Assembly: GCA_903831095.1 (NCBI GenBank)
Contig: CAIKWD010000026.1
Coordinates: forward strand, 29,290-93,289
Direction: 5' to 3'
DNA: 64,000 nucleotides
Origin: Candidatus Staskawiczbacteria bacterium
Lineage (GTDB): Bacteria > Patescibacteriota > Minisyncoccia > Minisyncoccales > Staskawiczbacteraceae
The notes beneath the pieces were generated by a model that had not been told where the DNA came from, made no database searches, and worked only from the letters and a program-made list of their open reading frames with translations. The number at the start of each line of letters is the position of its first letter. Position 1 is the stretch's first letter. Below, one piece after another: positions 1,501 through 56,076 of the stretch. The position numbers were made by a program, and so were the translations under genes.

Positions 1501-1540
1501 TATATTTATTCATTTTACAACATTTTCCCAATAAAACAAA

Positions 1541-1564
1541 AACCCCGCTAAGCGGGGTTTGTTT
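1541..1564 (-). terminator. Intrinsic terminator hairpin CCCCGCT-A-AGCGGGG with flanking T-run (bidirectional geometry)
   Basis: Perfect 7-bp GC stem at 1543-1557 followed by a T-run on the minus strand, immediately after the yqeY stop. Confidence 0.7.
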
Positions 1565-12106: not shown

Positions 12107-12190
12107 GCCGAGGTGATGAAATTGGCAAACATGCCAGACTCAAAATCTGGTGCCCTTAAAAGCTTGAGGGTTCAAGTCCCTCCCTCGGCA
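12107..12190 (+). tRNA. tRNA-Leu (anticodon CAA), class II with a long variable arm
   Basis: Acceptor stem GCCGAGG/CCTCGGC. Anticodon stem-loop CCAGA-CTCAAAA-TCTGG gives anticodon CAA. Long variable arm, T-arm GGTTCAAGTCC, discriminator A; CCA is not encoded. Confidence 0.85.
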
Positions 12191-12220: not shown

Positions 12221-12245
12221 AACCCCGCTCAGCGGGGCTTTTATT
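12221..12245. terminator. Bidirectional intrinsic terminator CCCCGC-TCA-GCGGGG shared by tRNA-Leu (+) and the minus-strand operon
   Basis: A 6-bp GC stem 12223-12237 with T-runs on both strands, preceded by a second small hairpin CTGTAC-TCA-GTACAG. It lies between the convergent tRNA and the MBL gene. Confidence 0.7.
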
Positions 12246-16632: not shown

Positions 16633-18255
16633 TTATTTTTTTGCTTGTCTCCTAGCTAAAAGAGCGCAAATTCTTTTACAAATTATTACTGAAACTTCCT
16701 CCTTGCCTAAAAATTCTTTCACTGTATTTTCAAACTCCGGCATATTTATAGGATCTAAAACTTTTAAATTCTTTACACCACAAGCTTTTACAATTTCTTC
16801 AATACTTAATTCTGGTGCATCCTTTCCCATTAAATTTTTACCCATTCCAGGATTTGGTTGGTGCCCAGTCATAGCTGTTATTCGGTTGTCCAAAATAATT
16901 ACCAAAGGATTGGATTTATTATAAACAGAATTTATAAGCGGAGCTATTCCCGAATGGAAAAATGTTCCGTCTCCCATTATGGTAATAACTTTCTGACTGG
17001 TAGATTTCTTAACTCCATGTGAAATACCCAATCCCGCTCCCATGTCAAAAAGATAGTCATACAAGTTATGAGGTGGTAAAGCTCCAATCATATTACAACC
17101 TATATCACCTCCAAAAACTGTTCCTTCAGGAGCAATCCTTTTTAAAACTGGAAAAACATGCCAATAAGGGCAACCTTCGCAAAGCCTGGCAGTTCTTCTA
17201 GGAAGATTAATTTGTTTTACCTTAAAGGTTGTAATTTTCTTTCCAATTATTTTTGCTGTAGCAGACAAAATTTTATCTGTATTCAGTTCTCCAATCTCTG
17301 GTAAAATGTCTTTTCCAAAAATCTTAACCTTAATTCCCATGTCGTTTGCAATAGCCTTTATTTCCTTCTCCAAATATGAATTAAGTTCTTCGGCAACTAA
17401 AATATTTTTTTTGCCTTTCATAAACTCAGCAATTTTCTTCCTTGGCAAAGGATAAAAAAATCCAAGCCTCAAAACTGGAAGCTGTATGCCCATTTCTTCA
17501 AAGGCCTCTAAAGTATGCATATAAGAAATTCCTGAAGTAATAACACCAAGTTTTGAGGACGCAGATTTATTTATTATAAAATTTACCTTTGATTTTTCAG
17601 CAAAAATTTCAATTTTCTTTAATTTTTCCAAAAGTTCTCCTTTCATTTCCATTACTCTTGGAGGCATAGTGGAAAATTGATGAGGATTTCTAATAAATTC
17701 TCCTTTTACTTCACTTTTAACCCTTTCTTCAAAATTAACAATTGCCCTTTGATGAGCCACGCGCGTAGTCACTCTTAAAATTACAGGAATATTGAATTTC
17801 TCTGATATTTCAAAACCCAGCTTTGTAAAATCATAACATTCTTGTGGACTAGAAGGTTCTAGAAAAGGTATATGAGACAAATAAGCATAACCCCTTGAAT
17901 CCTGTTCTGATTGAGCAGAACTCCAGCATGAAGGGTCATCTCCCACAAATATTACCATTGGAGCTTTTGTTCCAGTATAAGCCAAGGGTAACAAGCTATC
18001 TGAGCATACATTTATGCCAAAACTCTTCATATTTACCAAGGATTTTAAGCCTGAAAAACTGGCTCCTATGGCAGCTTCCAATGCAACCTTCTCATTTGTT
18101 GAATACTCGGCATAAACTCCGTTTGCTTCGGCAATTTTGCCAAACTCATCTCCAATTTCAGCTGATGGACATCCAGGATACCCAGAAACGAAAGAAACAC
18201 CTGCTGCTAAAGCTCCCCTAACTATTGCCTCGTTCCCCAATAAAACTTTTTTCAT
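16633..18255 (-). CDS. iorA: Indolepyruvate:ferredoxin oxidoreductase subunit alpha (IorA-like; TPP and Fe-S binding)
   Basis: 540 aa. A TPP-binding region (GDGTFFHSG), a Cys cluster CEGCPYW and a C-terminal C-rich tail. Immediately upstream of iorB. Confidence 0.75.
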   Translation of the reverse strand: MKKVLLGNEAIVRGALAAGVSFVSGYPGCPSAEIGDEFGKIAEANGVYAEYSTNEKVALEAAIGASFSGLKSLVNMKSFGINVCSDSLLPLAYTGTKAPMVIFVGDDPSCWSSAQSEQDSRGYAYLSHIPFLEPSSPQECYDFTKLGFEISEKFNIPVILRVTTRVAHQRAIVNFEERVKSEVKGEFIRNPHQFSTMPPRVMEMKGELLEKLKKIEIFAEKSKVNFIINKSASSKLGVITSGISYMHTLEAFEEMGIQLPVLRLGFFYPLPRKKIAEFMKGKKNILVAEELNSYLEKEIKAIANDMGIKVKIFGKDILPEIGELNTDKILSATAKIIGKKITTFKVKQINLPRRTARLCEGCPYWHVFPVLKRIAPEGTVFGGDIGCNMIGALPPHNLYDYLFDMGAGLGISHGVKKSTSQKVITIMGDGTFFHSGIAPLINSVYNKSNPLVIILDNRITAMTGHQPNPGMGKNLMGKDAPELSIEEIVKACGVKNLKVLDPINMPEFENTVKEFLGKEEVSVIICKRICALLARRQAKK

Positions 18256-20735
18256 TAAATTACTATGTTAATTAATTTGTTTGGTACGAAAACTATTTTT
18301 TTAACTTCAACTTCACCTATCAAAGCTTTTATTTTTTCAGACTTCATAACTATTTTTTCAGCTTCCTTTTGAGTCAGCCCAGCCTTTGCATTTATTTTAT
18401 CTCTAACTTTTCCATTTATCTGCACAATTAAAAGTACTTCTTGATCTTCAATTAATTTCTCGTCATATTTTGGCCACTTCTGCAAACTGCACATTTCCTT
18501 CAGTCCAGCGTTGGCCCAAAGTTCTTCAGCTAAATGCGGAGCAAAAGGAGAAAGAATAATTAAAAAGTTTGCCAAGTCCTTTTTATCCAAACCTGTGGCA
18601 GAAACTTGTCCCGCGGAGCGGGATCCCGTTACACGGGACCACTCATTTACAAATTCCATCATCGCACTTACAGAAGTATTAAATTTCATCAATTCAATAT
18701 CTTCTGCAACTTTCTTTACTGTCTTATGCAAAATCTTTTTCAATCCTTCTTCAGTTTTTACTGCAGCAGTTTTTTGCGATGCTAAATTATAAATCTTTTC
18801 CACAAATCTCCTGCATCCAACAACTCCTTTTGTATCCCAAGGAATCATTTGTTCAAATGGACCCATAAACATTTCATAAATTCTCAACGTGTCGGCTCCA
18901 TATTCTTTTACAATTACGTCTGGGTTAATAACATTCCCCTTAGACTTTGACATTTTAATTCCCCCTTCACCCAAAACCATTCCATGTGAGGTCCTCTTTT
19001 TATAGGGCTCAGATCCAATAGACAAAGGTACAGCTTTGATATCCCACAAAAATTTAAAAATAAATCTGGAATATAAAAGATGCAAAGTTGTATGTTCCAT
19101 TCCACCATTATACCAATCAACTGGAAGCCAATATTTGGCTAGAGATTCATCAACTAACTTTTTACTATTTTTAGGATCTATATATCTTAAAAAATACCAG
19201 TTAGAACCTGCCCAATTTGGCATAGTGTCGGTTTCCCTTTGAGCTGGACCTCCACATTTAGGACATTCTGTTTCTACCCAATTTTTAATCAAAGACAAAG
19301 GAGATTCTCCCGTATCTGTTGGCTTATATTTTTTTACATTGGGTAATTTAACCGGTAAATCTTTTTCAAAAACTGACTGCCATCCACACTTCTTACAAAA
19401 AATCATTGGTATTGGCTCACCCCAATAATGCTGTCTAGAAAAAACCCAATCTCTCAGTTTATAGCTTATTTTTGGTTGGGCAAATCCTTTTGAAGAAAGC
19501 CAAGCAATTATCAAGGGTCTCGCCTGAGCAGATTTCATACCGTCAAATTGAACAGAATTATAAAGAATTCCATCTCCTTCAAAACACTCCTCCAAATTCT
19601 TAACTTTCTGAGTAAGCAATTCATCGTCCGGTTTTATGGAAGTTCTTAATGGAATGCCATATTTCTTTGCCATTTTAAAATCTCTCTTGTCATGGGCATC
19701 AGCAAATACTGCTCCGGTTCCATATTGCTCTAAAACAAAGTCAGCAGTCCAAACAGGCATTTCCTCATTTGTTGCAGGATTCCTTACCAAAATACCCTTT
19801 AGCTGAACACCAGTTACATCTTTATCTTGATTGGTCCTATCCATATCAGAAACATTTTTAGCTTCCTCTCGATACTTTAAAACTTCATCAATGTTTTCAA
19901 TTCTGCTTTTATGAGTGTCTATAAAACTACTTCCAGGAGCTACAATTAAAAAAGTCCCAGAAAATATAGTATCTATTCTGGTTGTAAAAACATCTATAGA
20001 TTCTTCAACTCCTTCAATTGGAAACTTAACTAGGGCTCCATGAGATTCTCCAATCCAGTCCTTCTGCTGTGTTTTAATTTTTTCCAAATAATCTACATTT
20101 TCCAAATCTCTAATTAGCCTGTCAGCATAATTTGTAATTTTTATCATCCACTGCTCTTTTTCTCTTTTTTCAACTTTTGTCCCACATCTTTCGCAATTTC
20201 CATTTACCACTTCTTCGTTAGCCAAACCAATCAAACATGACGGACACCAATTTATATTAATTTTACTTTTATATGCCAACCCATTTTTAAACAACTGAAT
20301 AAAAATCCACTGAGTCCATTTATAATACTTTGGATCTGTAGTATCAATTTCTCTTGACCAGTCAAAAGACCACCCCATTCTCTGCATCTGTTCTTTAAAA
20401 TATTCAACATTCTTTTTTGTGACAACAGAAGGATGGACTCCTTTCTTAATTGCATAGTTTTCCGTAGGCAAACCAAAAGCATCCCAACCCATTGGATACA
20501 AAACATTAAACCCCTGCATTCTCTTCTTGCGAGCTATTATATCTAAGGCTGTATAACTCCTACAGTGTCCCACATGAAGCCCATCTCCAGAAGGGTATGG
20601 AAACTCCACCATGGCATAGAATTTCTTCTTCTTAGAGCCGTTTTTAGCCTTAAAAACGCTCGAATTAAACCACTTTTCCTGCCATTTTGCCTCTATTTTT
20701 TTAGGATTGTATTTTACCATATAGTTATCCTCCAT
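18255..20735 (-). CDS. leuS: Leucyl-tRNA synthetase
   Basis: 826 aa with the HIGH-like motif PYPSGDGLHVGH and KMSKS (KMSKSKGN). It contains the GC-rich palindromic element at 18608-18640. Confidence 0.9.
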   Translation of the reverse strand: MEDNYMVKYNPKKIEAKWQEKWFNSSVFKAKNGSKKKKFYAMVEFPYPSGDGLHVGHCRSYTALDIIARKKRMQGFNVLYPMGWDAFGLPTENYAIKKGVHPSVVTKKNVEYFKEQMQRMGWSFDWSREIDTTDPKYYKWTQWIFIQLFKNGLAYKSKININWCPSCLIGLANEEVVNGNCERCGTKVEKREKEQWMIKITNYADRLIRDLENVDYLEKIKTQQKDWIGESHGALVKFPIEGVEESIDVFTTRIDTIFSGTFLIVAPGSSFIDTHKSRIENIDEVLKYREEAKNVSDMDRTNQDKDVTGVQLKGILVRNPATNEEMPVWTADFVLEQYGTGAVFADAHDKRDFKMAKKYGIPLRTSIKPDDELLTQKVKNLEECFEGDGILYNSVQFDGMKSAQARPLIIAWLSSKGFAQPKISYKLRDWVFSRQHYWGEPIPMIFCKKCGWQSVFEKDLPVKLPNVKKYKPTDTGESPLSLIKNWVETECPKCGGPAQRETDTMPNWAGSNWYFLRYIDPKNSKKLVDESLAKYWLPVDWYNGGMEHTTLHLLYSRFIFKFLWDIKAVPLSIGSEPYKKRTSHGMVLGEGGIKMSKSKGNVINPDVIVKEYGADTLRIYEMFMGPFEQMIPWDTKGVVGCRRFVEKIYNLASQKTAAVKTEEGLKKILHKTVKKVAEDIELMKFNTSVSAMMEFVNEWSRVTGSRSAGQVSATGLDKKDLANFLIILSPFAPHLAEELWANAGLKEMCSLQKWPKYDEKLIEDQEVLLIVQINGKVRDKINAKAGLTQKEAEKIVMKSEKIKALIGEVEVKKIVFVPNKLINIVI
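18608..18640. repeat. GC-rich palindromic mini-element, family 1, copy A (in-frame in leuS)
   Basis: tgtcccgcggagcgggatcccgttacacgggac. The first 23 nt are identical to the copy at 37075-37108. It encodes SRVTGSRSAGQ. Confidence 0.8.
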
Positions 20736-21646: not shown

Positions 21647-22009
21647 TTAAAAAAATGTTGCCGTAAATAGTCCGATGGCCCCCAATATAAAACCGACAAT
21701 CGCCCCAGGGGTAGGAATTTGCTTAAAAAATACCCAGGCTAAAATTGGTTCCATTAATAAAATTGATGTTATTGAAATTACGCTTACTACCCAAATATTT
21801 TTAAAAACATTTATCCCAAGCATATATCCAAACAACACTGTTCCTCCAGCTATAGCGATAATCAAAAAAGCCTTTAAAAAAACATTCCAAAACGGCTGCG
21901 AATTTAAATAGTCCCCTTTTGCTCCAAGCATCTGTCCGTAGATGTATAAAGCTTCTCCTAAAAAAACTAAGGCAATAATAAAAATTTTAGGCCACAATCC
22001 TGCAATCAT
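21647..22009 (-). CDS. Small 4-TM membrane protein (SMR/DMT-like), paralog of the gene at 47506-47859
   Basis: 120 aa with four hydrophobic segments and a Glu in TM1 (GEALYIYG). Conserved FKNIW and MEPILAWxFFKQxPT blocks are shared with 47506-47859. Confidence 0.5.
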   Translation of the reverse strand: MIAGLWPKIFIIALVFLGEALYIYGQMLGAKGDYLNSQPFWNVFLKAFLIIAIAGGTVLFGYMLGINVFKNIWVVSVISITSILLMEPILAWVFFKQIPTPGAIVGFILGAIGLFTATFF

Positions 22010-34821: not shown

Positions 34822-36504
34822 TTACATCCTCTCAAGCGACTTAATTCCAAGCAACCACATTCCATTTTTCATAATGACAGAAAACGCATTTACCAAAGCA
34901 ACCTTATATGGAGAAAATTCGTCATTCTTATCTACTATTTTATTTTTAGCGTAATAACCATTAAACAATCCTGCAAGCTCAGTCAAATACAAAGCCAGAT
35001 AATGCGGTTCATATTCTGTTTGTGCTTTCAAAACTACTTCTGGAAAATGATACATTTTTTTCTCCAATTCAGAAACTTCATTGGAAACTTTTTTAAACGA
35101 AAGCTTTATTTTTTCTATTTTGGCTTTTCTCAAAACAGATTGTGCCCTTGTATATGAATACTGCAAATATGGCCCTGAATCTCCTTCAAATGAAATTGAC
35201 TTGTCAAAATCATAAATAATATCAGATCCGGCTGATTGTTTTAGAATAGAATACCTTATGGCTCCAACTGCAACATTTTCTGTTATTTCTGCCTTTTCTT
35301 TTTCAGATAACTCCCTATCTTTAATTTTTTCTTTTACCAATTCCTCAACTTTTTCTATTAAAGATTCTCCTGTTATAACCTTCCCTGTTCTAGAAGACAT
35401 TTTTCCTTCTGGCAAGCGTAACATTCCATGCCCAATATGCTTTGTTTTCTCTGCTAATTTTGGAGCCATTTTATCCAAAGCACAAAGCATAACCTTGAAA
35501 TAGTCATTCTGCTCGCTAGCAGTAATAACCACTGATTGGTCATACTTATATTTTTTATCCTTAAACTCCGCCAACCCTAAATCTTTTGCCTCATAAGTTG
35601 GCAAACCTTCTGAATTTATAAAAACCCTAGTATGGAGGCCATATTTTTCTCCTTTGAAAATTATTGCCCCATTGTCTCCCTTTTCAAATACCCCATTTTT
35701 CAATCCTTTCTCAACAATTTCTTTTCCAATTTTTATAACTTGGCTTTCTGAAATTAATTCATCAAACTTTGTATCTAACTTTTTATATATTTTATCAAAA
35801 TGTTCAAGGCTTATTTTCTTTCCAATAAAATACAGCTTGTTTATTTGCTCATCGCTTTTTGCAAATATATTTTTATTAATTTCTATAATTTCTTTTTTAG
35901 ATTCTTCGTTATTTTCATAATCAGAAGATCCAGTTGCATATGCGCTTCCCAAAGCTTTTATTTTATTTTCCAATTTTGAATTTTCCCAATCCATCTTTTG
36001 CATACCATAAACAGCTTTGGCAACATTTAGTCCTATATCAGATTGGTAGCAAACTCTTTTTACTTTAGCTCCCTGAAATTCAAATATGCGAGACAAAGAT
36101 TCTCCAATGGAATTATTCATCAAATGCCCAACATGAAACTCCTTAAAAAGATTAGGATCTGTATAATCAATGATGATTTTCTTGCCCTTTAAATTATTCC
36201 CTTTTCCAAAATTTTTGTCTATGCTTTTTATAGAATTAATAAAAATCTTGTCTGAAACAAAAAAGTTTATAAACCCAGGACCGGCAATTTCTATCTTACT
36301 GAATAAATTAGGCTTTATTTTGCCTTTTATATCCTCTGCAACTTCCCTCGGGTTCTTCCCAATTTTCTTAGCCAAAATTAAAGCCACATTGGTTGAATAG
36401 TCGCCATGTTCTTTTTCTCCAGGCACTTCAATAGAAAAATTCAAAGCTTCTTCTGTCAGCCCTTTGACTGCGTTTTCAATTATTTTTTTTATTTCACTTT
36501 TCAT
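34822..36504 (-). CDS. argS: Arginyl-tRNA synthetase
   Basis: 560 aa with an HIGH-like motif (HVGHLMN) and class I architecture. Confidence 0.9.
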   Translation of the reverse strand: MKSEIKKIIENAVKGLTEEALNFSIEVPGEKEHGDYSTNVALILAKKIGKNPREVAEDIKGKIKPNLFSKIEIAGPGFINFFVSDKIFINSIKSIDKNFGKGNNLKGKKIIIDYTDPNLFKEFHVGHLMNNSIGESLSRIFEFQGAKVKRVCYQSDIGLNVAKAVYGMQKMDWENSKLENKIKALGSAYATGSSDYENNEESKKEIIEINKNIFAKSDEQINKLYFIGKKISLEHFDKIYKKLDTKFDELISESQVIKIGKEIVEKGLKNGVFEKGDNGAIIFKGEKYGLHTRVFINSEGLPTYEAKDLGLAEFKDKKYKYDQSVVITASEQNDYFKVMLCALDKMAPKLAEKTKHIGHGMLRLPEGKMSSRTGKVITGESLIEKVEELVKEKIKDRELSEKEKAEITENVAVGAIRYSILKQSAGSDIIYDFDKSISFEGDSGPYLQYSYTRAQSVLRKAKIEKIKLSFKKVSNEVSELEKKMYHFPEVVLKAQTEYEPHYLALYLTELAGLFNGYYAKNKIVDKNDEFSPYKVALVNAFSVIMKNGMWLLGIKSLERM

Positions 36505-36506
36505 AT

Positions 36507-37211
36507 CTAATTTATTACTGTTCCTATAAAAGGCTTATTATTTAAAAAGTCTTCCAGCCTTTCCAAGTTTTTACCATTGATCATAGCCACTTTCAATTTT
36601 AAACTGGCAGCTAGTTTGGAAGCCTTAGGATCAAACGGCATTGAAAGCCCAGGTGACCACTTGTCTCCAACAATTCTCAAAAAGCTTTTCCAATCAATTT
36701 CTTTAAATGGTTTGGCATCTGGAAATTCATTGGGATTTTTGTCGTATACATAATCAACATTTGTAAGATTGATTATAGTTTTTATATTATTATTCTTTGC
36801 CATTAAAACAGCATCATAATCTGTTGACCACCCTGGCTTCCACCCTGCCCCAACAATAATATCCTTAGTAGTTTTTACTTTTACATTTGGATCTGTGACA
36901 ACTTTTGGAAAACAATTTCCAGCAAACATTTGTTTTATAACTTCGGCATTCAACCTGGTAATGTTAATTCCCATCCAATCCCTATCTTGGCTTTTTGCGC
37001 CAAACTCCAAAAGCGCCTTTTGATAGTTTCTGGCAACTTTTCCTCCCCCAACTAAAATAAAAAACCTATATTTCTGTCCCGCGGAGCGGGATCCCGTATA
37101 GCGGGACAAAGAATATTTGAAAGTCTTTAAAAAACCTATGTCTATCTCATTTGGAGCCACTAACGACCCGCCCAGAGATATTATTATTGTTTCCTTTATG
37201 TTTTTAGCCAT
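36507..37211 (-). CDS. pyrH: Amino-acid kinase family protein, UMP kinase-like (archaeal-type PyrH)
   Basis: 234 aa with SLGGS and LVGGG motifs. It contains the GC-rich palindromic element at 37075-37108. Confidence 0.6.
   Translation of the reverse strand: MAKNIKETIIISLGGSLVAPNEIDIGFLKTFKYSLSRYTGSRSAGQKYRFFILVGGGKVARNYQKALLEFGAKSQDRDWMGINITRLNAEVIKQMFAGNCFPKVVTDPNVKVKTTKDIIVGAGWKPGWSTDYDAVLMAKNNNIKTIINLTNVDYVYDKNPNEFPDAKPFKEIDWKSFLRIVGDKWSPGLSMPFDPKASKLAASLKLKVAMINGKNLERLEDFLNNKPFIGTVIN
37075..37108. repeat. GC-rich palindromic mini-element, family 1, copy B (in-frame in the pyrH-like gene)
   Basis: tgtcccgcggagcgggatcccgtatagcgggaca. It contains a perfect 7-bp inverted repeat GTCCCGC/GCGGGAC flanking the palindrome CGGGATCCCG, and encodes SRYTGSRSAGQ. 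Confidence 0.8.
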
Positions 37212-38497: not shown

Positions 38498-38852
38498 GGG
38501 GATGATTGTTTCGATGGATTGTTCTTTAAAGTAAGGCAAGTTGAGCTTTCTTGGGGCTCATTAATCTCCTGAGAAAAAACATAATTGCTAATTTATTTAA
38601 CTTTAATAAGCAACCAGCTTTAGCTTTTGCTTAAGCTGCATCCTTACCGATGATTCCTAATGGGCGGATCAAGGGTGTTATATTATTAGGATAGGCATCT
38701 TCATTCTCCGGGGAAATGCCAAAACTAAGGAGATAAAGCATTAAAAATTTTGCTAATTTTTTATTTAATGCTCGAAAAACAAAATCAGCTAAACTTGTAG
38801 AATTGCTTTTGAGAATTTTTCAGACGCGGTTTCAATACCGCCATCTCCACCA
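38498..38852 (+). ncRNA. ssrA: tmRNA (ssrA), about 355 nt
   Basis: 5' GGGGAUGAUUGUUUCGAUGG and 3' GACGCGGUUUCAAUACCGCCAUCUCCACCA (T-arm, acceptor, CCA). Acceptor pairing GGGGAUG/CAUCUCC. A candidate tag ORF reads ...GCU AAU UUA UUU AAC UUU AAU AAG CAA CCA GCU UUA GCU UUU GCU UAA (ANLFNFNKQPALAFA). It lies immediately downstream of smpB. Confidence 0.85.
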
Positions 38853-39577: not shown

Positions 39578-39687
39578 ATTTAAACCGCGACGAATAAAGA
39601 GTTCAGCGTAAATTGGGCCTAGATGTATTAGATTATAATCAGCCCAACTTCCGAAGCAATCTTGTTCGCCTCGCTCACAAGACCGTG
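39578..39687 (+). promoter_or_regulatory. Structured rpmI-rplT spacer / rplT leader with hairpin AATTGGGC(39611-39618)/GCCCAA(39642-39647), including the GTG start
   Basis: A 107-nt spacer unusual for this operon. It is about 95% identical over roughly 90 nt to the inverted copy at 47126-47240. Confidence 0.6.
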
Positions 39688-40032
39688 TCACGAGTAAAAA
39701 GATCAGTACAAGCCCGCAAGCACAGGAAAAACATTTTAAAGCATGCTAAGGGTTTTAGACAAGCAAGAAATTCTAAATTTAAAGCCGCTAAAGATGCCTT
39801 GAGGCATGCTTGGTCTTATGCATTTAGAGACAGGAGAGTGAAAAAGAGAACCTTCAGAAACCTCTGGAACTTACAAATTAATGCTTTGGCCAGGGAAAAC
39901 GGCATAACATACAGCAGGTTCATTGAAGGATTAAAAAAGCACAAGATAGAATTGGACAGAAAAGTTTTATCAGAATTGGCAAACACTTATCCAGAAGTAT
40001 TTATAAAAATAGTGGAAGAAGTAAAAAAATAA
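39685..40032 (+). CDS. rplT: 50S ribosomal protein L20
   Basis: (V)SRVKRSVQARKHRKNILKHAKGFRQ matches the L20 N-terminus from the GTG at 39685. The ORF-track TTG start at 39613 adds a non-homologous extension and is rejected. Confidence 0.85.
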   Translation: MSRVKRSVQARKHRKNILKHAKGFRQARNSKFKAAKDALRHAWSYAFRDRRVKKRTFRNLWNLQINALARENGITYSRFIEGLKKHKIELDRKVLSELANTYPEVFIKIVEEVKK

Positions 40033-46655: not shown

Positions 46656-47129
46656 TTAAGCTTTGTAGACTTTATATCCTTCGTGAACTTTCTTTTCAAT
46701 TTTCATACCTACAGAATCTCCTTTTTTAGCTGAAGCAACTTCCACATGTTCAATTTGCATTGATTTTACTTTCTGCTCAAAATCTGTATCTTGCCCGCCA
46801 ACTACCCTAATTATTTCCCCGTCTTTCAGCGGAGCTTCCAACTCAATAACTGCTACCTCAATATTTGAAAAATAATGAGTTATTCGGCCAATTATTTTAC
46901 CCTCTGGCTCTACCTTGGGCATTATAGATTTTGACGCAATCTTTTTAACTGCTTTTTTGACTGCTTTTTTAGTAGCCTTTTTTACAGTTTTTTTAACTGC
47001 CTTCTTAGTTGTTTTTTTGACTGCCTTTTTTATAATTTTTTTCTTCTTAGAAACTACTTTCTTTCCCGATTTCTTCGAGGATCCTCGACTGCTTTGCAGT
47101 CGGGACTTTTTTGCTTTTGCTTTGGACAC
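46656..47129 (-). CDS. Fusion of a histone H1-like lysine-rich N-terminus (KKAVKK repeats) with an EF-Tu domain-2-like beta-barrel C-terminal domain; GTG start
   Basis: 157 aa. Tandem KKAVKKT repeats precede KIIGRITHYFSNIEVAVIELEAPLKDGEIIRVVG...SMQIEHVEVASAKKGDSVGMKI. The start codon and leader are copied from rplT. Confidence 0.55.
   Translation of the reverse strand: MSKAKAKKSRLQSSRGSSKKSGKKVVSKKKKIIKKAVKKTTKKAVKKTVKKATKKAVKKAVKKIASKSIMPKVEPEGKIIGRITHYFSNIEVAVIELEAPLKDGEIIRVVGGQDTDFEQKVKSMQIEHVEVASAKKGDSVGMKIEKKVHEGYKVYKA
46930..47040. repeat. Tandem approximately 12-21-nt DNA repeats encoding the KKAVKK lysine-rich repeats
   Basis: Repeated units such as tttttgactgcctttttt are visible in the sequence. 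Confidence 0.6.
47064..47105. repeat. GC-rich palindromic mini-element, family 2, copy D (in-frame in the H1-like gene; encodes SRLQSSRGSSKKSG)
   Basis: tcccgatttcttcgaggatcctcgactgctttgcagtcggga. It has a 14-nt perfect palindrome TCGAGGATCCTCGA flanked by TCCCGA/TCGGGA. Confidence 0.75.
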
Positions 47130-47240
47130 GGTCTTGTGAGCGAGGCGAACAAGATTGCTTCGGAAATTGGGCTAATTATAATCTTATACATCTAGGCCCA
47201 ATTTACGCGGAAATACTTTGTTCTGTCGCGGTTATTTACT
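47126..47240 (-). promoter_or_regulatory. Inverted duplicate of the rplT leader (rpmI-rplT spacer, hairpin and GTG start), fused upstream of the H1-like/EndoQ operon
   Basis: The reverse complement of 47126-47238 aligns with 39583-39690. Two 22-nt and 31-nt blocks are identical, and the substitutions cluster in the hairpin loop. The stem AAATTGGGC(47164-47172)/GCCCAATTT(47196-47204) is a perfect 9 bp. Confidence 0.7.
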
Positions 47241-47505: not shown

Positions 47506-47859
47506 TTACAGCAAAGTAATTATTAAGCCTATAGCACCAAAGATAAATCCTATGGCGATTTTCAGAGTTGGGAGTTGCTTAAAGAAAAACCAGGCCAATA
47601 TTGGTTCCATTATTACTATAGCTGCCACAGACATGACTGCAATTATCCAAATATTCTTAAATATGTGCATTCCAAAATATACGGACCCAAGAAACAACGC
47701 TCCCCCAATTAAAACAATTAAAATAGCCAAAGTAAAAGTTAACATTTTTGAAGAGCTACCAACTGCATTTTTGGCAACAAACATTTCCGAATATAAATAA
47801 AAAGATTCGCCAATAAACAAAAACAAAATTACTAAAAATTTATAAAAAAGAATATTCAT
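47506..47859 (-). CDS. Small 4-TM membrane protein (SMR/DMT-like), paralog of 21647-22009
   Basis: 117 aa with GESFYLY in TM1, FKNIWIIAV, and MEPILAWFFFKQLPT, all shared with the paralog. Confidence 0.5.
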   Translation of the reverse strand: MNILFYKFLVILFLFIGESFYLYSEMFVAKNAVGSSSKMLTFTLAILIVLIGGALFLGSVYFGMHIFKNIWIIAVMSVAAIVIMEPILAWFFFKQLPTLKIAIGFIFGAIGLIITLL

Positions 47860-48804: not shown

Positions 48805-48836
48805 AAAATCCCGCAGTGGGCGGGATCTTTTAATTT
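48805..48836 (-). terminator. Intrinsic terminator ATCCCGC-AGTG-GGCGGGAT with T-run, downstream of the NIF3 gene
   Basis: A 7-8-bp GC stem followed by a T-run on the minus strand. Confidence 0.65.
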
Positions 48837-53505: not shown

Positions 53506-54063
53506 CTATTTCCCTAGGGCTTTTAACGCGATTTTTATACGCTCTTCGCTATTTTTAATATTATCTGGTACATGGTTTAAAGCATCTTTGGCTTGCTGTT
53601 TGGAAAAACCAAGTTGCATTAAAGCTCCTTCTGCCTCGTCGGCATTATCTTTCTTTTGCCCTAGCATTTTTATTTTGCCTGTAAGTTCTAAAATAATTGT
53701 CATAGCTTTTTTAGAACCAATTCCAGGTATGCCTTCAAAAATCTTTTCGTCCTGTTTTAAAATCCTGTCTTTTATCTTATCCAAAGAACCCAAGGCTGAA
53801 ATATCCAAAGCAGACTTTGGACCAACTCCGCGTATGTCCATTAAAGTTTCAAAAAATTCCAAACCTTCGTAAGTTGGAAAACCATAAAGATCCAAAGCTT
53901 CCTCCTTCACATTTTGGTATATAAAAAGCTTGATTGGCTCGCCAATTTCTGGTAAAGTTATCATGCTCTGGCGGGACAAAAAAACCTTGTAGCCAATATT
54001 GGCCACTTCAACTATAATAAATTTGTCACGCTTTAGTATGATTTTTCCGTATAAATAAGATAT
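53506..54063 (-). CDS. ruvA: Holliday junction DNA helicase RuvA
   Basis: MISYLYGKIILK...VEVANIGYKVFL OB domain, HhH motifs (GIGSKKA, IRGVGPKSA) and a C-terminal domain. The start is set at the internal Met; the ORF track gives 54099. Confidence 0.85.
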   Translation of the reverse strand: MSYLYGKIILKRDKFIIVEVANIGYKVFLSRQSMITLPEIGEPIKLFIYQNVKEEALDLYGFPTYEGLEFFETLMDIRGVGPKSALDISALGSLDKIKDRILKQDEKIFEGIPGIGSKKAMTIILELTGKIKMLGQKKDNADEAEGALMQLGFSKQQAKDALNHVPDNIKNSEERIKIALKALGK

Positions 54064-54087
54064 CATAAGTTTATATGCTTTATTACA

Positions 54088-56076
54088 TTGTATATGCAAT
54101 TTGAAGTAAAATCAAAGTTCAAGCCAAAGGGCGACCAGCCTCAGGCAATAAAAAAATTGACTGAGAACTTAAAAGCCGGGGTTAAAGACCAGGTGCTTTT
54201 GGGCGTTACTGGGTCTGGAAAGACTTTTACAATGGCTAAAGTCATAGAAAAAATACAAAAACCCACTTTGGTCATTTCCCCCAACAAAACTTTAGCTGCC
54301 CAGCTTTACCAGGAATTCAAAGAATTTTTCCCAAACAATGCTGTGCACTATTTTGTCTCATATTACGACTACTATCAGCCTGAAGCCTATATTCCCCAGT
54401 CAGACACATATATAGAGAAAGATGCAAAAATAAACGAAGAAATAGACAGGCTAAGGCATGCGGCAGTCCAAGATGTGACTATGAGAAAAGATGTAATTGT
54501 TGTAGCTTCGGTTTCCTGCATTTACAACATTGGCTCACCAGAAAACTATGAAAATGTTTCGCTAGAAATAACAAAAAACCAAAAAATAAAAAGAAAAGAT
54601 TTTTTAATTCTGTTAAACAATTTGCAGTACCAAAGAAATGATATTGATTTTAAACCTGGCATGTTTCGCGTGCGCGGAGACATTGTAGAAATATATATTG
54701 TAACAGGCGAAAAAATAATTCGCGTGGAATTTTTTGGAGATACCATAGACAAAATTTCAGAAACTTTGCCAGGATTTGGACAAAAGTATAAAAGTTCTGG
54801 AGACAAGCTCAGACTCTTCCCCGCTCACTTTTGGGTGACACCTCAAGACAAAGTTAACATTGCCATAAACAATATAAAGCTGGAATTAGAACAAAGATTA
54901 AAAGAATTAAAAAAACAAAATAAATTAGTTGAAGCTCAAAGGCTTGAGCAAAAAACAAATTACGATTTAGAAATGCTTAAGGAAACTGGCTGGTGCAACG
55001 GCATAGAAAACTATTCCAGCCATATGGAATTTAGAAAACCAGGCCAGGCCCCATTTTCCCTGGTTGATTATTTTGATTATTTTAACCCTTCGACGGGCTC
55101 AGAGCAGGCCCAGGGCGGTTCTTTAATGTTTATAGACGAGTCGCATATTTCTATTTCCCAAATTAGGGCCATGGCAATACAAGACAAAATAAGAAAAGGC
55201 ACTTTAATAGACTTTGGATTCCGCCTGCCTTCAGCCATAGATAACCGGCCCTTAACTTTTGCTGAGTTTGAAAAGCGCCAAAAGCAAACAATTTATGTTT
55301 CTGCTACGCCAGCTACTTTTGAAAAACAAAAAGCTGGCAAAAATATTATTGAGCAAATTATTAGACCTACAGGATTATTAGAACCAGTTATTGAAATTAA
55401 AAAAACTGACAACCAAATAAAAGACTTAATAGAAGAAATAAAAAAACAGGTTGAGAAAAAACACAGGACTTTGGTTGTGACAATTACAAAAAGACTAGCT
55501 GAAGAAATAACCAATTATCTTGTTGACCGGGGCATTAAAACCCAATATCTACACTCGGAAGTAAAAACCATGGAACGACCTAAAATACTAAAGGAATTTC
55601 GTGAGGGCAAATATGACGTTTTAGTGGGCATAAACCTTTTAAGAGAAGGCTTAGATTTGCCAGAGGTTTCTTTAGTTGCAATTTTAGATGCCGACAAGGA
55701 GGGTTTTTTAAGAAACGAAACAACCTTAATTCAAACAATGGGCCGAGCTGCCCGTCATCAAAATGGCAGGATAATTTTGTATGCAGACAAAACAACCATG
55801 TCTATGGAGTCTGCAATTAACGAAATAAATAGAAGAAGAAAAATACAACAGGCATACAACAAAAAACACAACATAACTCCCAAAACAATTATTTCTGGCA
55901 TACGCGAATGGGGATTTTCCAAAAAAGAAGACATTGATTCGGAATTCTGGATGATTCAAGACAAAGAAACTCTAGAGAAAGAAATGAAAATAGCTGCCAA
56001 AAATTTAGACTTTGAGCGGGCAGCGGAAATTCGCGATTTGATTAAAAAATTAGAGACAACAAAAAAGCCCGTTTAA
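54088..56076 (+). CDS. uvrB: Excinuclease ABC subunit B
   Basis: 662 aa with a Walker A (GVTGSGKTFTMA), the beta-hairpin region, helicase motifs and a C-terminal UvrC-binding domain (FERAAEIRDLIKKLE). Confidence 0.9.
   Translation: MYMQFEVKSKFKPKGDQPQAIKKLTENLKAGVKDQVLLGVTGSGKTFTMAKVIEKIQKPTLVISPNKTLAAQLYQEFKEFFPNNAVHYFVSYYDYYQPEAYIPQSDTYIEKDAKINEEIDRLRHAAVQDVTMRKDVIVVASVSCIYNIGSPENYENVSLEITKNQKIKRKDFLILLNNLQYQRNDIDFKPGMFRVRGDIVEIYIVTGEKIIRVEFFGDTIDKISETLPGFGQKYKSSGDKLRLFPAHFWVTPQDKVNIAINNIKLELEQRLKELKKQNKLVEAQRLEQKTNYDLEMLKETGWCNGIENYSSHMEFRKPGQAPFSLVDYFDYFNPSTGSEQAQGGSLMFIDESHISISQIRAMAIQDKIRKGTLIDFGFRLPSAIDNRPLTFAEFEKRQKQTIYVSATPATFEKQKAGKNIIEQIIRPTGLLEPVIEIKKTDNQIKDLIEEIKKQVEKKHRTLVVTITKRLAEEITNYLVDRGIKTQYLHSEVKTMERPKILKEFREGKYDVLVGINLLREGLDLPEVSLVAILDADKEGFLRNETTLIQTMGRAARHQNGRIILYADKTTMSMESAINEINRRRKIQQAYNKKHNITPKTIISGIREWGFSKKEDIDSEFWMIQDKETLEKEMKIAAKNLDFERAAEIRDLIKKLETTKKPV

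What the first reader, a model, noticed from the sequence alone, without database searches (positions are those of the whole stretch)
18608..18640. GC-rich palindromic mini-element inserted in-frame in leuS (family 1, copy A)
A 33-nt stretch of roughly 70% G+C (tgtcccgcggagcgggatcccgttacacgggac) sits inside leuS, in a genome that is otherwise about 30-35% G+C. Its first 23 nt are identical to a stretch inside an unrelated kinase gene at 37075-37108. The architecture is an inverted repeat GTCCCGC...GCGGGAC enclosing the perfect palindrome CGGGATCCCG. In both genes it is read in the same frame and encodes SR(V/Y)TGSRSAGQ. The neighbouring protein sequence is unrelated, so nucleotide identity driven by coding constraint is implausible. 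This is the hallmark of a short palindromic mobile or repetitive element that survives inside ORFs by adding a tolerated peptide loop, analogous to Rickettsia palindromic elements. It would be the most novel item in the window if confirmed genome-wide.
Basis: seen in the sequence. Interest (0 to 1): 0.85.

Follow-up and report, generated by a model that had tools for sequence, protein, structure and literature searches.

The report
Tiny double-hairpin DNA insert inside genes
Two essential genes of this small AT-rich bacterium each carry the same 30-base G+C-rich double-hairpin insertion that adds a harmless 10-amino-acid loop; it belongs to a widespread, apparently undescribed family of miniature palindromic repeats that turns up again and again at the very same spots in related genomes.

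Summary
Window 18609-18638 (leuS) and 37077-37106 (archaeal-type UMP kinase, pyrH) hold a 30-nt G+C-rich insert, TCCCG-N5-CGGGA|TCCCG-N5-CGGGA, made of two abutting 15-nt hairpin units. Both are read as S-R-x-x-G-S-R-x-x-G.

Close LeuS orthologs have an empty TGG|CAA site: a clean 30-nt insertion with no target-site duplication. A 96%-identical filled/empty allele pair occurs in one metagenome.

The core GTCCCG-N5-CGGGATCCCG-N5-CGGGAC occurs in 70 species-representative genome loci and more than 120 metagenome loci. These span several Patescibacteria classes, Bacteroidota, Ignavibacteria, Verrucomicrobiota and other phyla.

- In AT-rich, CPR-like genomes it sits in-frame in housekeeping genes, 12 of 14 in the same phase.
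- Elsewhere it is mostly intergenic or embedded in larger palindromic repeats.

Element nucleotides stay 25-29/30 identical where synonymous sites are saturated, and stems change in a compensatory way.

Best reading: a REP/RPE-like, non-autonomous miniature palindromic element. It inserts without duplication at (T/A)TG|CA-like sites and survives as a tolerated surface loop. No mobilising enzyme was found, and the mechanism is inferred.

Verdict: a new variant of a known kind, of moderate-to-high interest.

The parts
18609..18638 (-). 30-nt double-hairpin insert in leuS. On the coding strand it reads TCC CGT GTA ACG GGA TCC CGC TCC GCG GGA = SRVTGSRSAG.
   Evidence: It is absent from the closest orthologs P0001 and P0002 (90% identity) and from L201 DNA, which reads TGG|CAA. 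As ssDNA it folds into two 6-bp triloop hairpins, -12.1 kcal/mol, z -3.3 to -3.8.
18609..18623 (+). Hairpin unit TCCCGC-GGA-GCGGGA, with a GNA triloop on the + strand. It is identical to the unit at 37077-37091.
18624..18638 (-). Hairpin unit TCCCGT-GTA-ACGGGA, read on the - strand. The closing pair is T-A, where the orthologous copy L071 has C-G (a compensatory change).
18255..20735 (-). leuS (leucyl-tRNA synthetase, 826 aa), host gene of copy A. The insert lies after Trp in an inter-helix loop of the anticodon-binding domain.
   Evidence: homologs named leucine--tRNA ligase, Candidatus Staskawiczbacteria. (alignment to 1H3N).
37077..37106 (-). 30-nt double-hairpin insert in pyrH. On the coding strand it reads TCC CGC TAT ACG GGA TCC CGC TCC GCG GGA = SRYTGSRSAG.
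   Evidence: Most of 120 homologs read SLQKYLGxKRFF with no insert. The copy is identical in 7 independent assemblies. As ssDNA it folds at -11.5 to -11.6 kcal/mol, z -3.5 to -4.0.
36507..37211 (-). Archaeal-type UMP kinase (PF00696, 234 aa), host gene of copy B. The insert forms the coil between helix 25-36 and strand 48-54.
   Evidence: 2JI5/2BRI. (AlphaFold: mean pLDDT 83, dipping to about 70 in residues 41-50).
48808..48826 (.). Intergenic terminator-like hairpin ATCCCGC-AGTGG-GCGGGAT, flanked by an A-run and a T-run. It has the same TCCCGC/GCGGGA stem as the element unit and may be an extragenic relative.
1540..1560 (.). Intergenic terminator-like hairpin AAACCCCGC-TAA-GCGGGGTTT with the same CCCGC/GCGGG stem core.
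12223..12237 (.). Hairpin CCCCGC-TCA-GCGGGG, 33 nt downstream of a tRNA gene. It is terminator-like and has the same stem core.

Best explanation
The two copies belong to a family of miniature, non-coding palindromic DNA elements.

**Anatomy.** The unit is a 15-nt G+C-rich hairpin, TCCCG(C)-loop-(G)CGGGA. In CPR-type copies the loop is usually a GNA triloop, giving the very stable GCGNAGC mini-hairpin. The common form is a head-to-head dimer of 30 nt, which creates the central CGGGATCCCG.

**Insertion (inferred steps).** The element is inserted into pre-existing DNA without target-site duplication. It prefers a short palindromic junction, (T/A)TG|CA(A/T). The same junctions in leuS, pyrH and rlmN have been hit or kept in scattered lineages. 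Because the element is 30 nt long, it never shifts the reading frame.

**Survival in ORFs.** In gene-dense CPR genomes the survivors are those that fall in surface loops. They are mostly in the phase that reads Ser-Arg-x-x-Gly-Ser-Arg-x-x-Gly, a small, polar, flexible peptide.

**Mobilisation (not shown).** The element encodes nothing, so it must be mobilised in trans. The most likely agent is an enzyme acting on single-stranded hairpin DNA, in the manner of HUH/Y1 (RAYT, IS200/IS605-type) chemistry. That chemistry gives TSD-less, seamless insertion and excision. No such enzyme was identified here.

**Maintenance.** The stems are held against the genome's AT bias by re-copying or gene conversion between copies, or by selection on the hairpin.
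For: **Insertion**
- Filled and empty alleles differ by a clean 30 nt with no TSD. WIN versus L201: TGG[30]CAA against TGG|CAA. L087 versus L204/L205: 96% aa and 90.8% nt identical, with L087 and L204 from the same metagenome.
- PyrH and RlmN homologs are mostly empty at the site.

**Repetitive and spread**
- The identical 32-mer GTCCCGCGAAGCGGGATCCCGCTCCGCGGGAC lies in valS (L057, Shapirobacteria), leuS (L087), rplJ (L166) and secF (L160).
- Single 15-nt units also occur in-frame: L202 argS and L160.

**DNA-level rather than protein-level origin**
- The element uses rare codons, P about 1e-9.
- It occurs intergenically and inside larger palindromic repeats in Bacteroidota/Ignavibacteria and other phyla.

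**Recurrence at one site**
- Element-bearing LeuS sequences (2 short, 5 long variants) are scattered over a 121-sequence tree. Each has element-free nearest neighbours.
- The same holds for rlmN: P0241, P0319, and a decayed copy in P0298.

**Constraint or renewal**
- The element is 25/30, 26/30 and 29/30 identical between lineages whose 4-fold-type third positions are only 38-46% identical.
- The closing base pair changes C-G to T-A. Long variants carry different but still paired inner stems.
- In low-GC copies 42/50 units have a Watson-Crick closing pair, against 31.8 +/- 1.7 expected.

**Tolerated loop**
- The inserts map to loops.
- 12 of 14 identified host genes use the SRxxGSRxxG phase, P = 8e-5. 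The phase distribution of GC or TGCA junctions in the window's ORFs (0.28-0.40 at the codon boundary) does not explain this.

**Target preference**
- T occupies position -2 in 33/50 symmetrised flanks of low-GC copies.

**Precedent**
- Intragenic REP monomers and dimers and RPEs are documented, including in uvrA/uvrB (PMC3733652).
Against: - No transposase or RAYT-like gene recurs near copies in about 190 loci.
- None is present among 30 ORFs of the window scanned with Pfam.
- No copy was found in IMG/VR viral contigs, phage records or plasmid records.
- Strict-pattern copy number in Patescibacteria genomes is only 1-2 per MAG. That is far below classical REP families.
- The loop of the first unit is locus-specific across lineages: GTA in leuS of WIN and L071, TAY in pyrH of WIN, L101 and L202. 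This fits long residence at a site under selection better than repeated fresh insertion.
- The G and C next to the element were fixed by my search pattern, so the target preference at position -1 is untested.
- Cross-phylum sharing of the stem sequence is unexplained.
Confidence: 0.6

Rival explanations
1. A host-beneficial structured nucleic-acid module. The double hairpin, in mRNA or in DNA as a cruciform or protein-binding site containing GATC, is kept by purifying selection at particular places in particular genes. It might act as a translational or transcriptional pause site, an RNase barrier, or a binding site. The peptide would be a by-product.
For: - Element nucleotides, including third codon positions, are conserved where synonymous sites are saturated.
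- Stem changes are compensatory.
- First-unit loops are locus-specific and shared across diverged lineages.
- The RNA folds at -18.5 and -20.8 kcal/mol, z -2.4 and -4.4.
- The same CCCGC/GCGGG stem is used by terminator-like hairpins in the window.
Against: - Most orthologs lack it, including 90-96% identical ones: 114/121 LeuS, about 108/121 PyrH, 113/120 RlmN.
- It occurs in at least 14 unrelated genes at unrelated positions, and in intergenic repeats in other phyla.
- In 121-131 nt of mRNA context the fold is not exceptional, z about -1.
- No Rfam family matches.
Confidence: 0.17
2. The insert spreads between related genomes by DNA uptake and short-patch homologous recombination, that is, allele transfer or a molecular drive like that of uptake sequences, rather than by transposition. 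This would explain why the same orthologous junction is occupied in scattered lineages.
For: - The same site is occupied in scattered LeuS, PyrH and RlmN lineages.
- The first-unit loop is locus-specific and shared between lineages.
- Filled and empty alleles co-occur in one metagenome.
- From my own knowledge: CPR bacteria are generally thought to depend on DNA uptake.
Against: - There is no co-converted flank. Sequence next to the element shows ordinary or even raised divergence: WIN versus L101, and 6 of 9 nt differ just right of the L087 junction.
- The lineages involved are only about 75% identical in nucleotides, which is poor substrate for homologous recombination.
- It does not explain identical copies in unrelated genes.
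- Copy number is far below that of uptake sequences.
Confidence: 0.1
3. Selection on the protein. A convergent S-R-x-x-G-S-R-x-x-G peptide, such as a flexible linker or a modification or binding motif, was acquired independently. The nucleotide similarity would be secondary.
For: There is a strong bias to one reading phase, 12 of 14 host genes.
Against: - The peptide is encoded by the rarest codons of the genome (TCC 9% of Ser, CGC 10% of Arg, GCG 7% of Ala, ACG 5% of Thr). The joint probability is about 1e-9.
- The same DNA occurs in the other two phases in real proteins: SecF, PanK, IleS, RecJ.
- It also occurs in non-coding DNA.
- Loop residues x-x vary freely.
Confidence: 0.03
4. An assembly, adapter or chimera artefact.
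For: All carriers are metagenome-derived. CGGGATCCCG happens to equal a commercial BamHI linker sequence (my own knowledge).
Against: - The pyrH copy is identical in 7 assemblies from different samples and assemblers.
- The insert is always a multiple of 3 and keeps long ORFs open.
- Variants show compensatory evolution and orthologous conservation.
Confidence: 0.01

Closest known systems
Intragenic REP elements and REP dimers (GTAG- and CGTC-tagged REP superfamilies; Di Nocera et al. 2013, PMC3733652)
   Same: - They are 20-40-nt G+C-rich hairpin units, often paired in inverted orientation 1-5 bp apart.
- They are mostly extragenic, often acting as terminators, but some are inserted in-frame in housekeeping genes, including uvrA/uvrB, where they add short peptides.
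- There is no TSD.
- Mobilisation in trans by RAYT Y1 transposases is hypothesised.
   Different: - There is no GTAG or CGTC tag; the unit starts (G)TCCCG.
- The units abut with no spacer, giving a 30-nt whole.
- Copy number in CPR genomes is very low.
- The same core is shared across distant phyla.
- No RAYT was found nearby.
- Orthologous junctions are occupied recurrently.
Rickettsia palindromic elements (RPE)
   Same: They are palindromic repeats inserted in-frame in ORFs of a reduced, AT-rich genome. They encode tolerated extra peptide segments in otherwise conserved proteins.
   Different: - From my own knowledge, RPE-1-type elements are about 100-150 bp, so this element is three to five times smaller.
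- The host phylum is different.
- No sequence relation was tested.
- Here the peptide is only 10 aa.
IS200/IS605-derived miniature elements (PATEs) and the single-strand 'peel and paste' mechanism
   Same: The ends are hairpins. Insertion and excision are TSD-less and seamless. There is a short sequence preference at the insertion point.
   Different: - This element has no room for guide sequences or subterminal cleavage sites.
- No TnpA or TnpB was found.
- The target preference is palindromic and weak.
GC clusters and double-hairpin elements of AT-rich fungal mitochondrial genomes
   Same: They are short G+C-rich palindromic or double-hairpin mobile repeats in an AT-rich genome. Some lie inside coding regions.
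   Different: They are organellar and eukaryotic, with unrelated sequences. The comparison rests on my own knowledge and was not tested here.
DNA mini-hairpin d(GCGNAGC) (PMC13037366, PMC3201870)
   Same: CPR-type units contain exactly GCGAAGC, GCGGAGC or GCGTAGC at the hairpin tip. In 23 of 42 paired units the triloop is GNA.
   Different: That is a structural motif, not a genetic element. Its relevance to recognition of the element as ssDNA is inferred.

Membership tests
REP (repetitive extragenic palindromes), GTAG/CGTC superfamilies | A 20-40-nt imperfect palindrome forming a G+C-rich stem-loop | tested here: met
   Units are 15 nt with 5-6-bp stems and the dimer is 30 nt. The ssDNA fold is -12 kcal/mol, z -3.3 to -4.0.
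REP (repetitive extragenic palindromes), GTAG/CGTC superfamilies | A conserved GTAG or CGTC tetranucleotide at one end of the unit | tested here: not met
   All 158 non-redundant copies begin GTCCCG. A CGTC tag is seen only on the larger outer palindromes that sometimes enclose the core.
REP (repetitive extragenic palindromes), GTAG/CGTC superfamilies | High copy number per genome, predominantly extragenic | tested here: not met
   Patescibacteria MAGs have 1-2 strict copies each and the window has 2 in 64 kb. Some Bacteroidota and Ignavibacteria MAGs have 5-9. In CPR-type loci most copies are intragenic. The count is limited to the strict pattern.
REP (repetitive extragenic palindromes), GTAG/CGTC superfamilies | Association with a RAYT (Y1 HUH transposase) gene flanked by the repeats | tested here: inconclusive
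   No recurrent transposase-like ORF lies within 3.5 kb of copies in about 190 loci. None is among 30 window ORFs. Whole genomes could not be scanned.
MITE (DDE-transposon-derived miniature inverted-repeat element) | Terminal inverted repeats plus a target-site duplication | tested here: not met
   Filled versus empty sites show no duplication: TGG|CAA and TGG|CAG.
Rickettsia palindromic elements | A palindromic repeat inserted in-frame in ORFs and absent from orthologs | tested here: met
Rickettsia palindromic elements | Sequence or size class of the RPE families, in Rickettsiales hosts | not tested
   No RPE consensus was available for comparison. The size (30 nt) and host (Patescibacteria and others) differ from the description in PMC3733652 and from my own knowledge.
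IS200/IS605-type hairpin elements (PATE) | TSD-less insertion next to a conserved short target sequence | tested here: inconclusive
   No TSD is present. There is a symmetric flank preference, with T at -2 in 66% and A/T at -3 in 82%. Position -1 was fixed by the search pattern.
CRISPR repeat | Regularly spaced arrays of the repeat with unique spacers | tested here: not met
   Every locus has one strict-pattern copy. The only second, non-strict dimer seen (L131) lies about 450 nt away and is intergenic, not spaced as in an array.
Known structured RNA families (Rfam 15) | A match to a curated covariance model | tested here: not met
   The window and 15 representative loci matched only tRNA and tmRNA.

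The most novel reading that the evidence does not exclude
This could be the smallest site-specific mobile DNA described so far. It would be a 15-nt hairpin unit, usually a 30-nt head-to-head dimer, that is pasted seamlessly and repeatedly into the same junctions of essential genes across bacterial phyla. The agent would be an as yet unknown trans-acting, hairpin-recognising enzyme, or a break-repair route that caps both 3' ends with the unit. Copies within a genome would be kept alike by gene conversion: both window copies share one unit, and L071 leuS and L202 pyrH share another.
Probability: 0.2. Interest if true: 0.85.

Novelty: new variant of a known kind. Interest (0 to 1): 0.6.

Why it matters
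**Genome biology.** The element shows that even about 1-Mb CPR genomes with almost no intergenic space carry selfish or semi-selfish palindromic repeats. They hide inside essential proteins as 10-residue loops.

**Practical uses.**
- It explains otherwise puzzling G+C-rich indels in CPR protein alignments.
- It offers a strain-level marker, since filled and empty alleles co-exist in one sample.
- It warns against treating such indels as phylogenetic characters.

**Mechanistic interest.** Insertion is TSD-less and recurs at the same site. The stem is conserved across phyla. Together these point to an unidentified hairpin-specific DNA transaction. If that were found, it could be of interest as a minimal insertion system.

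**Wider pattern.** The same lineage carries further families of short G+C-rich in-frame inserts, such as the NPST... and LSEAEG... peptides. The phenomenon therefore seems general and, within the held PMC/bioRxiv library searched here, undescribed for this group.

Tried and rejected
**Source genome**
- An exact look-up of the window's LeuS found nothing. The source genome was traced only through the identical PyrH, P0121.
- DNA for the closest empty alleles (P0001, P0002, P0123) was not available. L201 and L204 were used instead.

**Databases with no useful hit**
- Rfam, on the window and 15 loci: only tRNA and tmRNA.
- Viral contigs: 0 hits.
- Phage and plasmid BLAST: only chance 19-24-nt matches.
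- Literature searches found no description of such elements in CPR/Patescibacteria.

**Search for a mobilising enzyme**
- Clustering of about 2,000 ORFs near copies revealed no shared transposase.
- A Pfam scan of 30 window ORFs found none.

**Ideas considered and dropped**
- Loop sequences of the first unit are copied from the target flank. Only loose resemblances were seen, and I judged them numerology.
- The first PyrH unit arose by conversion of QKYLG to SRYTG. This would need about 9 substitutions.
- The reading-phase bias comes from stop-codon avoidance. All three phases are stop-free outside the loop.
- The reading-phase bias comes from the phase distribution of the target motif.
- The element is a CRISPR repeat, an intein or intron, or an uptake sequence.

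**Technical**
- The first tree attempt with Biopython timed out. It was redone with my own neighbour-joining code.
Full report
**1. The observation**

The string TGTCCCGCGGAGCGGGATCCCGTTACACGGGAC lies at window 18607-18639. TGTCCCGCGGAGCGGGATCCCGTATAGCGGGAC lies at 37075-37107.

- The first 23 nt are identical, and 29 of 33 match overall.
- The window is 34.2% G+C and the element 70%.
- The shared 21-mer never occurs in 100 dinucleotide-preserving shuffles.
- CCCG-N5-CGGG occurs six times against 0.03 expected.
- Copy A lies in the minus-strand ORF 18255..20735. This is a leucyl-tRNA synthetase whose best relatives are named Candidatus Staskawiczbacteria.
- Copy B lies in ORF 36507..37211, an archaeal-type UMP kinase.
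- Both are read in the same phase, as SRVTGSRSAG and SRYTGSRSAG.
- The pyrH copy is base-for-base identical in seven independent assemblies from ENA and Logan. An assembly artefact is therefore excluded.

**2. Anatomy**

The architecture is GTCCCG-N5-CGGGATCCCG-N5-CGGGAC. It consists of two abutting 15-nt hairpin units, TCCCG(C)-loop-(G)CGGGA, in head-to-head orientation. Their junction creates the central CGGGATCCCG.

- As single-stranded DNA, each strand folds into two 6-bp hairpins with triloops. The energy is -11.5 to -12.1 kcal/mol, against about -5.5 for shuffles (z -3.3 to -4.0).
- As RNA, a long-range pairing of the outer arms is preferred: -18.5 and -20.8 kcal/mol.
- I read each unit outward on its own strand across 158 non-redundant copies collected later. 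Low-GC (CPR-like) copies have a Watson-Crick closing pair in 42 of 50 units, against 31.8 +/- 1.7 expected.
- Their triloops are mostly GAA, GGA or GTA. This is the GCGNAGC 'mini-hairpin' known for extraordinary stability as DNA (PMC13037366, PMC3201870).

**3. It is an insertion**

*LeuS.* In an alignment of 121 LeuS sequences, the two closest homologs (90% identity) read W-QVSA(A/T)GLDK. The window reads W-SRVTGSRSAG-QVSATGLDK.

- At DNA level the empty site is TGG|CAA (L201). The filled site is TGG[TCCCGTGTAACGGGATCCCGCTCCGCGGGA]CAA.
- The insert is therefore 30 nt / 10 aa. The flanking G, C and Gln codon are host sequence, and there is no target-site duplication.
- A second, sharper case comes from a different LeuS clade. 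L087 (filled) and L204/L205 (empty) are 96% identical in protein and 90.8% in DNA, and L087 and L204 come from the same metagenome.
- They differ by exactly the 30 nt at the same TGG|CAG junction. In addition, 6 substitutions cluster in the 9 nt to the right of the junction.

*PyrH.* Most of 120 homologs read SLQKYLGxKRFF. The window reads SL-SRYTGSRSAG-QKY-RFF, so there is also a 4-codon difference beside the insert.

*Location in the protein.* The insert maps to the loop between the first helix and second strand of UMP kinase (alignment to 2JI5). In the AlphaFold model, residues 37-47 are coil between helix 25-36 and strand 48-54, with a pLDDT dip. In LeuRS it maps to an inter-helix loop of the anticodon-binding domain (alignment to 1H3N).

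*Codon usage.* The ten codons are among the rarest in this genome: TCC 9% of Ser, CGC 10% of Arg, GCG 7% of Ala, ACG 5% of Thr. The probability of these choices given the peptide is about 1e-9. The nucleotide identity is therefore not a consequence of coding.

**4. It is a family, and a widespread one**

*Distribution.* Scanning one genome per species with the degenerate core pattern gave 70 loci. They come from:

- Patescibacteria: Staskawicz-, Shapiro-, Kerfeld-, Magasaniki-, Paceibacterota and MAGs labelled Saccharibacteria;
- Bacteroidota/Chitinophagales, Ignavibacteriales and Kryptoniota;
- Acidobacteria, Verrucomicrobiota, Lentisphaeria and some Proteobacteria.

Viral contigs, phage records and plasmid records gave nothing. 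Rfam has no matching family.

*Host genes in AT-rich, CPR-like loci.* There the element sits inside long ORFs of housekeeping genes:

- leuS, pyrH, rlmN, valS, uvrB, rplJ (L10);
- a cupin-type glucose-6-phosphate isomerase, an ABC ATPase and a cytidylyltransferase-HAD fusion.

In higher-GC genomes of other phyla (Kryptoniota, Chitinophagales, Syntrophorhabdaceae) it likewise lies in-frame in leuB, nuoF and a glycosidase-like ORF.

The exact 32-mer GTCCCGCGAAGCGGGATCCCGCTCCGCGGGAC occurs in valS (L057), leuS (L087), rplJ (L166) and secF (L160). Single 15-nt units also occur in-frame: SREAG in argS of L202, plus an extra unit in secF.

*Context elsewhere.* In Bacteroidota and Ignavibacteria the core is embedded in multi-copy intergenic structured repeats of about 100 nt. 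In other organisms it forms the centre of roughly 170-nt nested palindromes with GGCGTCATCCTGA...TCAGAATGACGCC ends. Some of these lie in-frame in ileS, recJ and an M24 peptidase.

*Copy number.* Strict-pattern copies number 5-9 in some Bacteroidota/Ignavibacteria MAGs, but only 1-2 in Patescibacteria MAGs.

**5. Reading phase**

Of 14 stand-alone insertions in identified proteins, 12 are read as SRxxGSRxxG. One is read as VPxxGIPxxG (secF) and one as PxxRDPxxRD (PanK).

- The probability is 8e-5 under equal phases.
- Outside the loops, none of the three phases contains a stop codon.
- In the window's ORFs, GC or TGCA junctions fall at codon boundaries only 28-40% of the time.

The bias is therefore best explained by selection for the least disruptive peptide: small, polar and flexible, without prolines.

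**6. Recurrence at the same junction**

Seven LeuS sequences carry an element at the W|Q junction. Two are the short form. Five are a long form in which both hairpins have longer, different but still paired stems, for example TCCCGATTGCC-CGAA-GGCAATCGAGGA|TCCTCGA-AAAA-TCGGGA.

- On a neighbour-joining tree, each of the seven has element-free nearest neighbours.
- The same PyrH junction holds short and long forms in scattered lineages.
- The rlmN junction GL|H holds the element in P0241 and P0319 and a decayed copy in P0298, while 113 of 120 homologs are empty.
- The L087/L204 pair shows that at least one of these events is recent. L087 carries the 'master' sequence, unlike the window's leuS copy.

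Independent insertion at the same junction is therefore the simplest reading. Symmetrised flanks of low-GC copies show T at -2 in 66% and A/T at -3 in 82%. This gives a palindromic (T/A)TG|CA(A/T) preference. Position -1 was fixed by my search pattern, and such a short motif cannot by itself explain the recurrence.

**7. Conservation**

Between the window and L071 (leuS), L202 and L101 (pyrH), third positions at conserved 4-fold-type codons are only 38-46% identical. That is saturated divergence. Yet the element is 25/30, 26/30 and 29/30 identical, with sharp boundaries.

- The differences are loop changes, or a compensatory C-G to T-A change in a closing pair.
- The first-unit loop is locus-specific: GTA in leuS, TAY in pyrH.
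- The second unit is identical between the two window copies (TCC).
- L071 leuS and L202 pyrH both carry CAA in the second unit. They come from different samples, and whether they are one lineage is unproven.
- The long-form first unit is nearly identical between leuS of L073 and pyrH of L203.

This pattern suggests either purifying selection on the hairpins or partial gene conversion among copies of one genome. I could not separate the two.

**8. Mechanism**

*Shown:*
- a clean 30-nt insertion;
- no target-site duplication;
- a hairpin dimer;
- presence/absence polymorphism between close relatives;
- identical copies in unrelated genes;
- loop location in the proteins;
- phase bias.

*Inferred:*
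- The element is non-autonomous and is pasted in by an activity that handles hairpin ssDNA and leaves no duplication.
- HUH/Y1 (RAYT, IS200/IS605-like) chemistry is the known precedent.
- The absence of a TSD argues against DDE-type MITE transposition.

*Against this inference:*
- No such enzyme recurs near copies.
- None is found among 30 ORFs of the window.
- CPR copy numbers are low.

*Rivals:* a functional RNA/DNA hairpin, spread by transformation and recombination, selection on the peptide, and artefact. They are weighed in the rival list.

**9. Comparison with what is known**

Intragenic REP monomers and dimers, and the Rickettsia palindromic elements, are the closest precedents (PMC3733652).

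This element shares with them the hairpin dimer design, the in-frame survival and the kind of host genes. It differs as follows:

- It fails the defining GTAG/CGTC tag test.
- It is smaller (30 nt).
- It is low-copy in CPR.
- It shares its core across phyla.
- It recurs at orthologous junctions.

Literature searches found no description for CPR/Patescibacteria. I therefore rate it a new variant of a known kind.

**10. Verdict**

The element is part of a broader, apparently undescribed habit of short G+C-rich in-frame inserts in Staskawiczbacteria proteins. How it is mobilised or maintained remains open.

Noticed in passing
window 55085-55123 (uvrB, ORF 54055..56076 +): A different G+C-rich in-frame insert encodes FNPSTGSEQAQGGS. 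It is absent from the Kerfeldbacteria UvrB of L030 and forms an imperfect hairpin (-11.7 kcal/mol as RNA). 'NPST...' peptides recur at variable loops of PyrH homologs (GDNPSTSLRTF, GNNPSTSLRAR) and RlmN homologs (ENPSTSLR). This suggests a second element family.
   Followed up: partly
RlmN homologs P0241-P0360, site RYLKK|VTNVTF (L050 about 2400-2500): This is an insertion hot spot: 58 of 120 Staskawiczbacteria RlmN sequences carry 4-25 extra residues here. The commonest are ITLSEAEGS.. and ITPSGVEGLFHG, which look like translated CTGAGCGAAGCGAAGG-type palindromic repeats.
   Followed up: partly
L202 1640-1690 (argS downstream of pyrH): argS of a related lineage carries the hairpin GCCTCGC-AGG-GCGAGGC directly followed by a single unit TCCCGCGAAGCGGGA, read as ..SQGEAVSREAGQ... 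The window's argS (34822..36504) has neither.
   Followed up: partly
window 1540-1560, 12223-12237, 48808-48826: Intergenic terminator-like hairpins flanked by A/T runs use the same CCCGC/GCGGG stem as the element unit. L131 has a full double unit in terminator position after its GPI gene.
   Followed up: partly
L012, L014, L029, L036, L043, L054, L059, L069 and others (Bacteroidota/Ignavibacteriaceae MAGs): A multi-copy structured repeat of about 100 nt..GCGCACCAGTCCCGCTTTACGGGATCCCGAAAAGCGGGACCCGCTACGCAGTCTGGCGGGTCCGCC.., has covarying flanking hairpins. It matches no Rfam family.
   Followed up: partly
L114, L180, L190, L157, L118, L134, L097: Nested palindromic elements of about 170 nt have GGCGTCATCCTGA...TCAGAATGACGCC ends (CGTC-tagged, REP-like) and the double-hairpin core at their centre. 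Some lie in-frame in ileS (L190) and recJ (L180).
   Followed up: partly
L053, L075, L084, L143, L156, L165, L186 (Verrucomicrobiota-like, 57-63% G+C): Here the core is flanked on both sides by the same CAGCCTTCA heptad-like tandem repeat. It is unclear whether this is a duplication or an insertion into a microsatellite.
   Followed up: no
window 39602-39699 and 47115-47212: A 98-nt inverted repeat, 92% complementary. One arm covers the start of rplT (L20). The other lies at the start of an unannotated 157-aa ORF, 46659-47129.
   Followed up: no
window 21711-21819 and 47567-47675: A 109-nt direct repeat (71% identity) lies inside two small ORFs with no Pfam match, 21650-22009 and 47509-47859. 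They are probably paralogs.
   Followed up: no
window 38498-38852: A tmRNA gene (Rfam RF00023, 110 bits) lies next to smpB. A tRNA gene lies at 12107-12190.
   Followed up: no
L087 2190-2200 versus L204; L071 leuS; window pyrH: The sequence immediately 3' of the insert, in coding sense, is perturbed in several filled alleles. L087 has 6 of 9 nt substituted, L071 has about 4 codons missing, and pyrH lacks LGxK. The 5' side is intact. This could be a one-sided scar of insertion or a later adjustment of loop length.
   Followed up: partly
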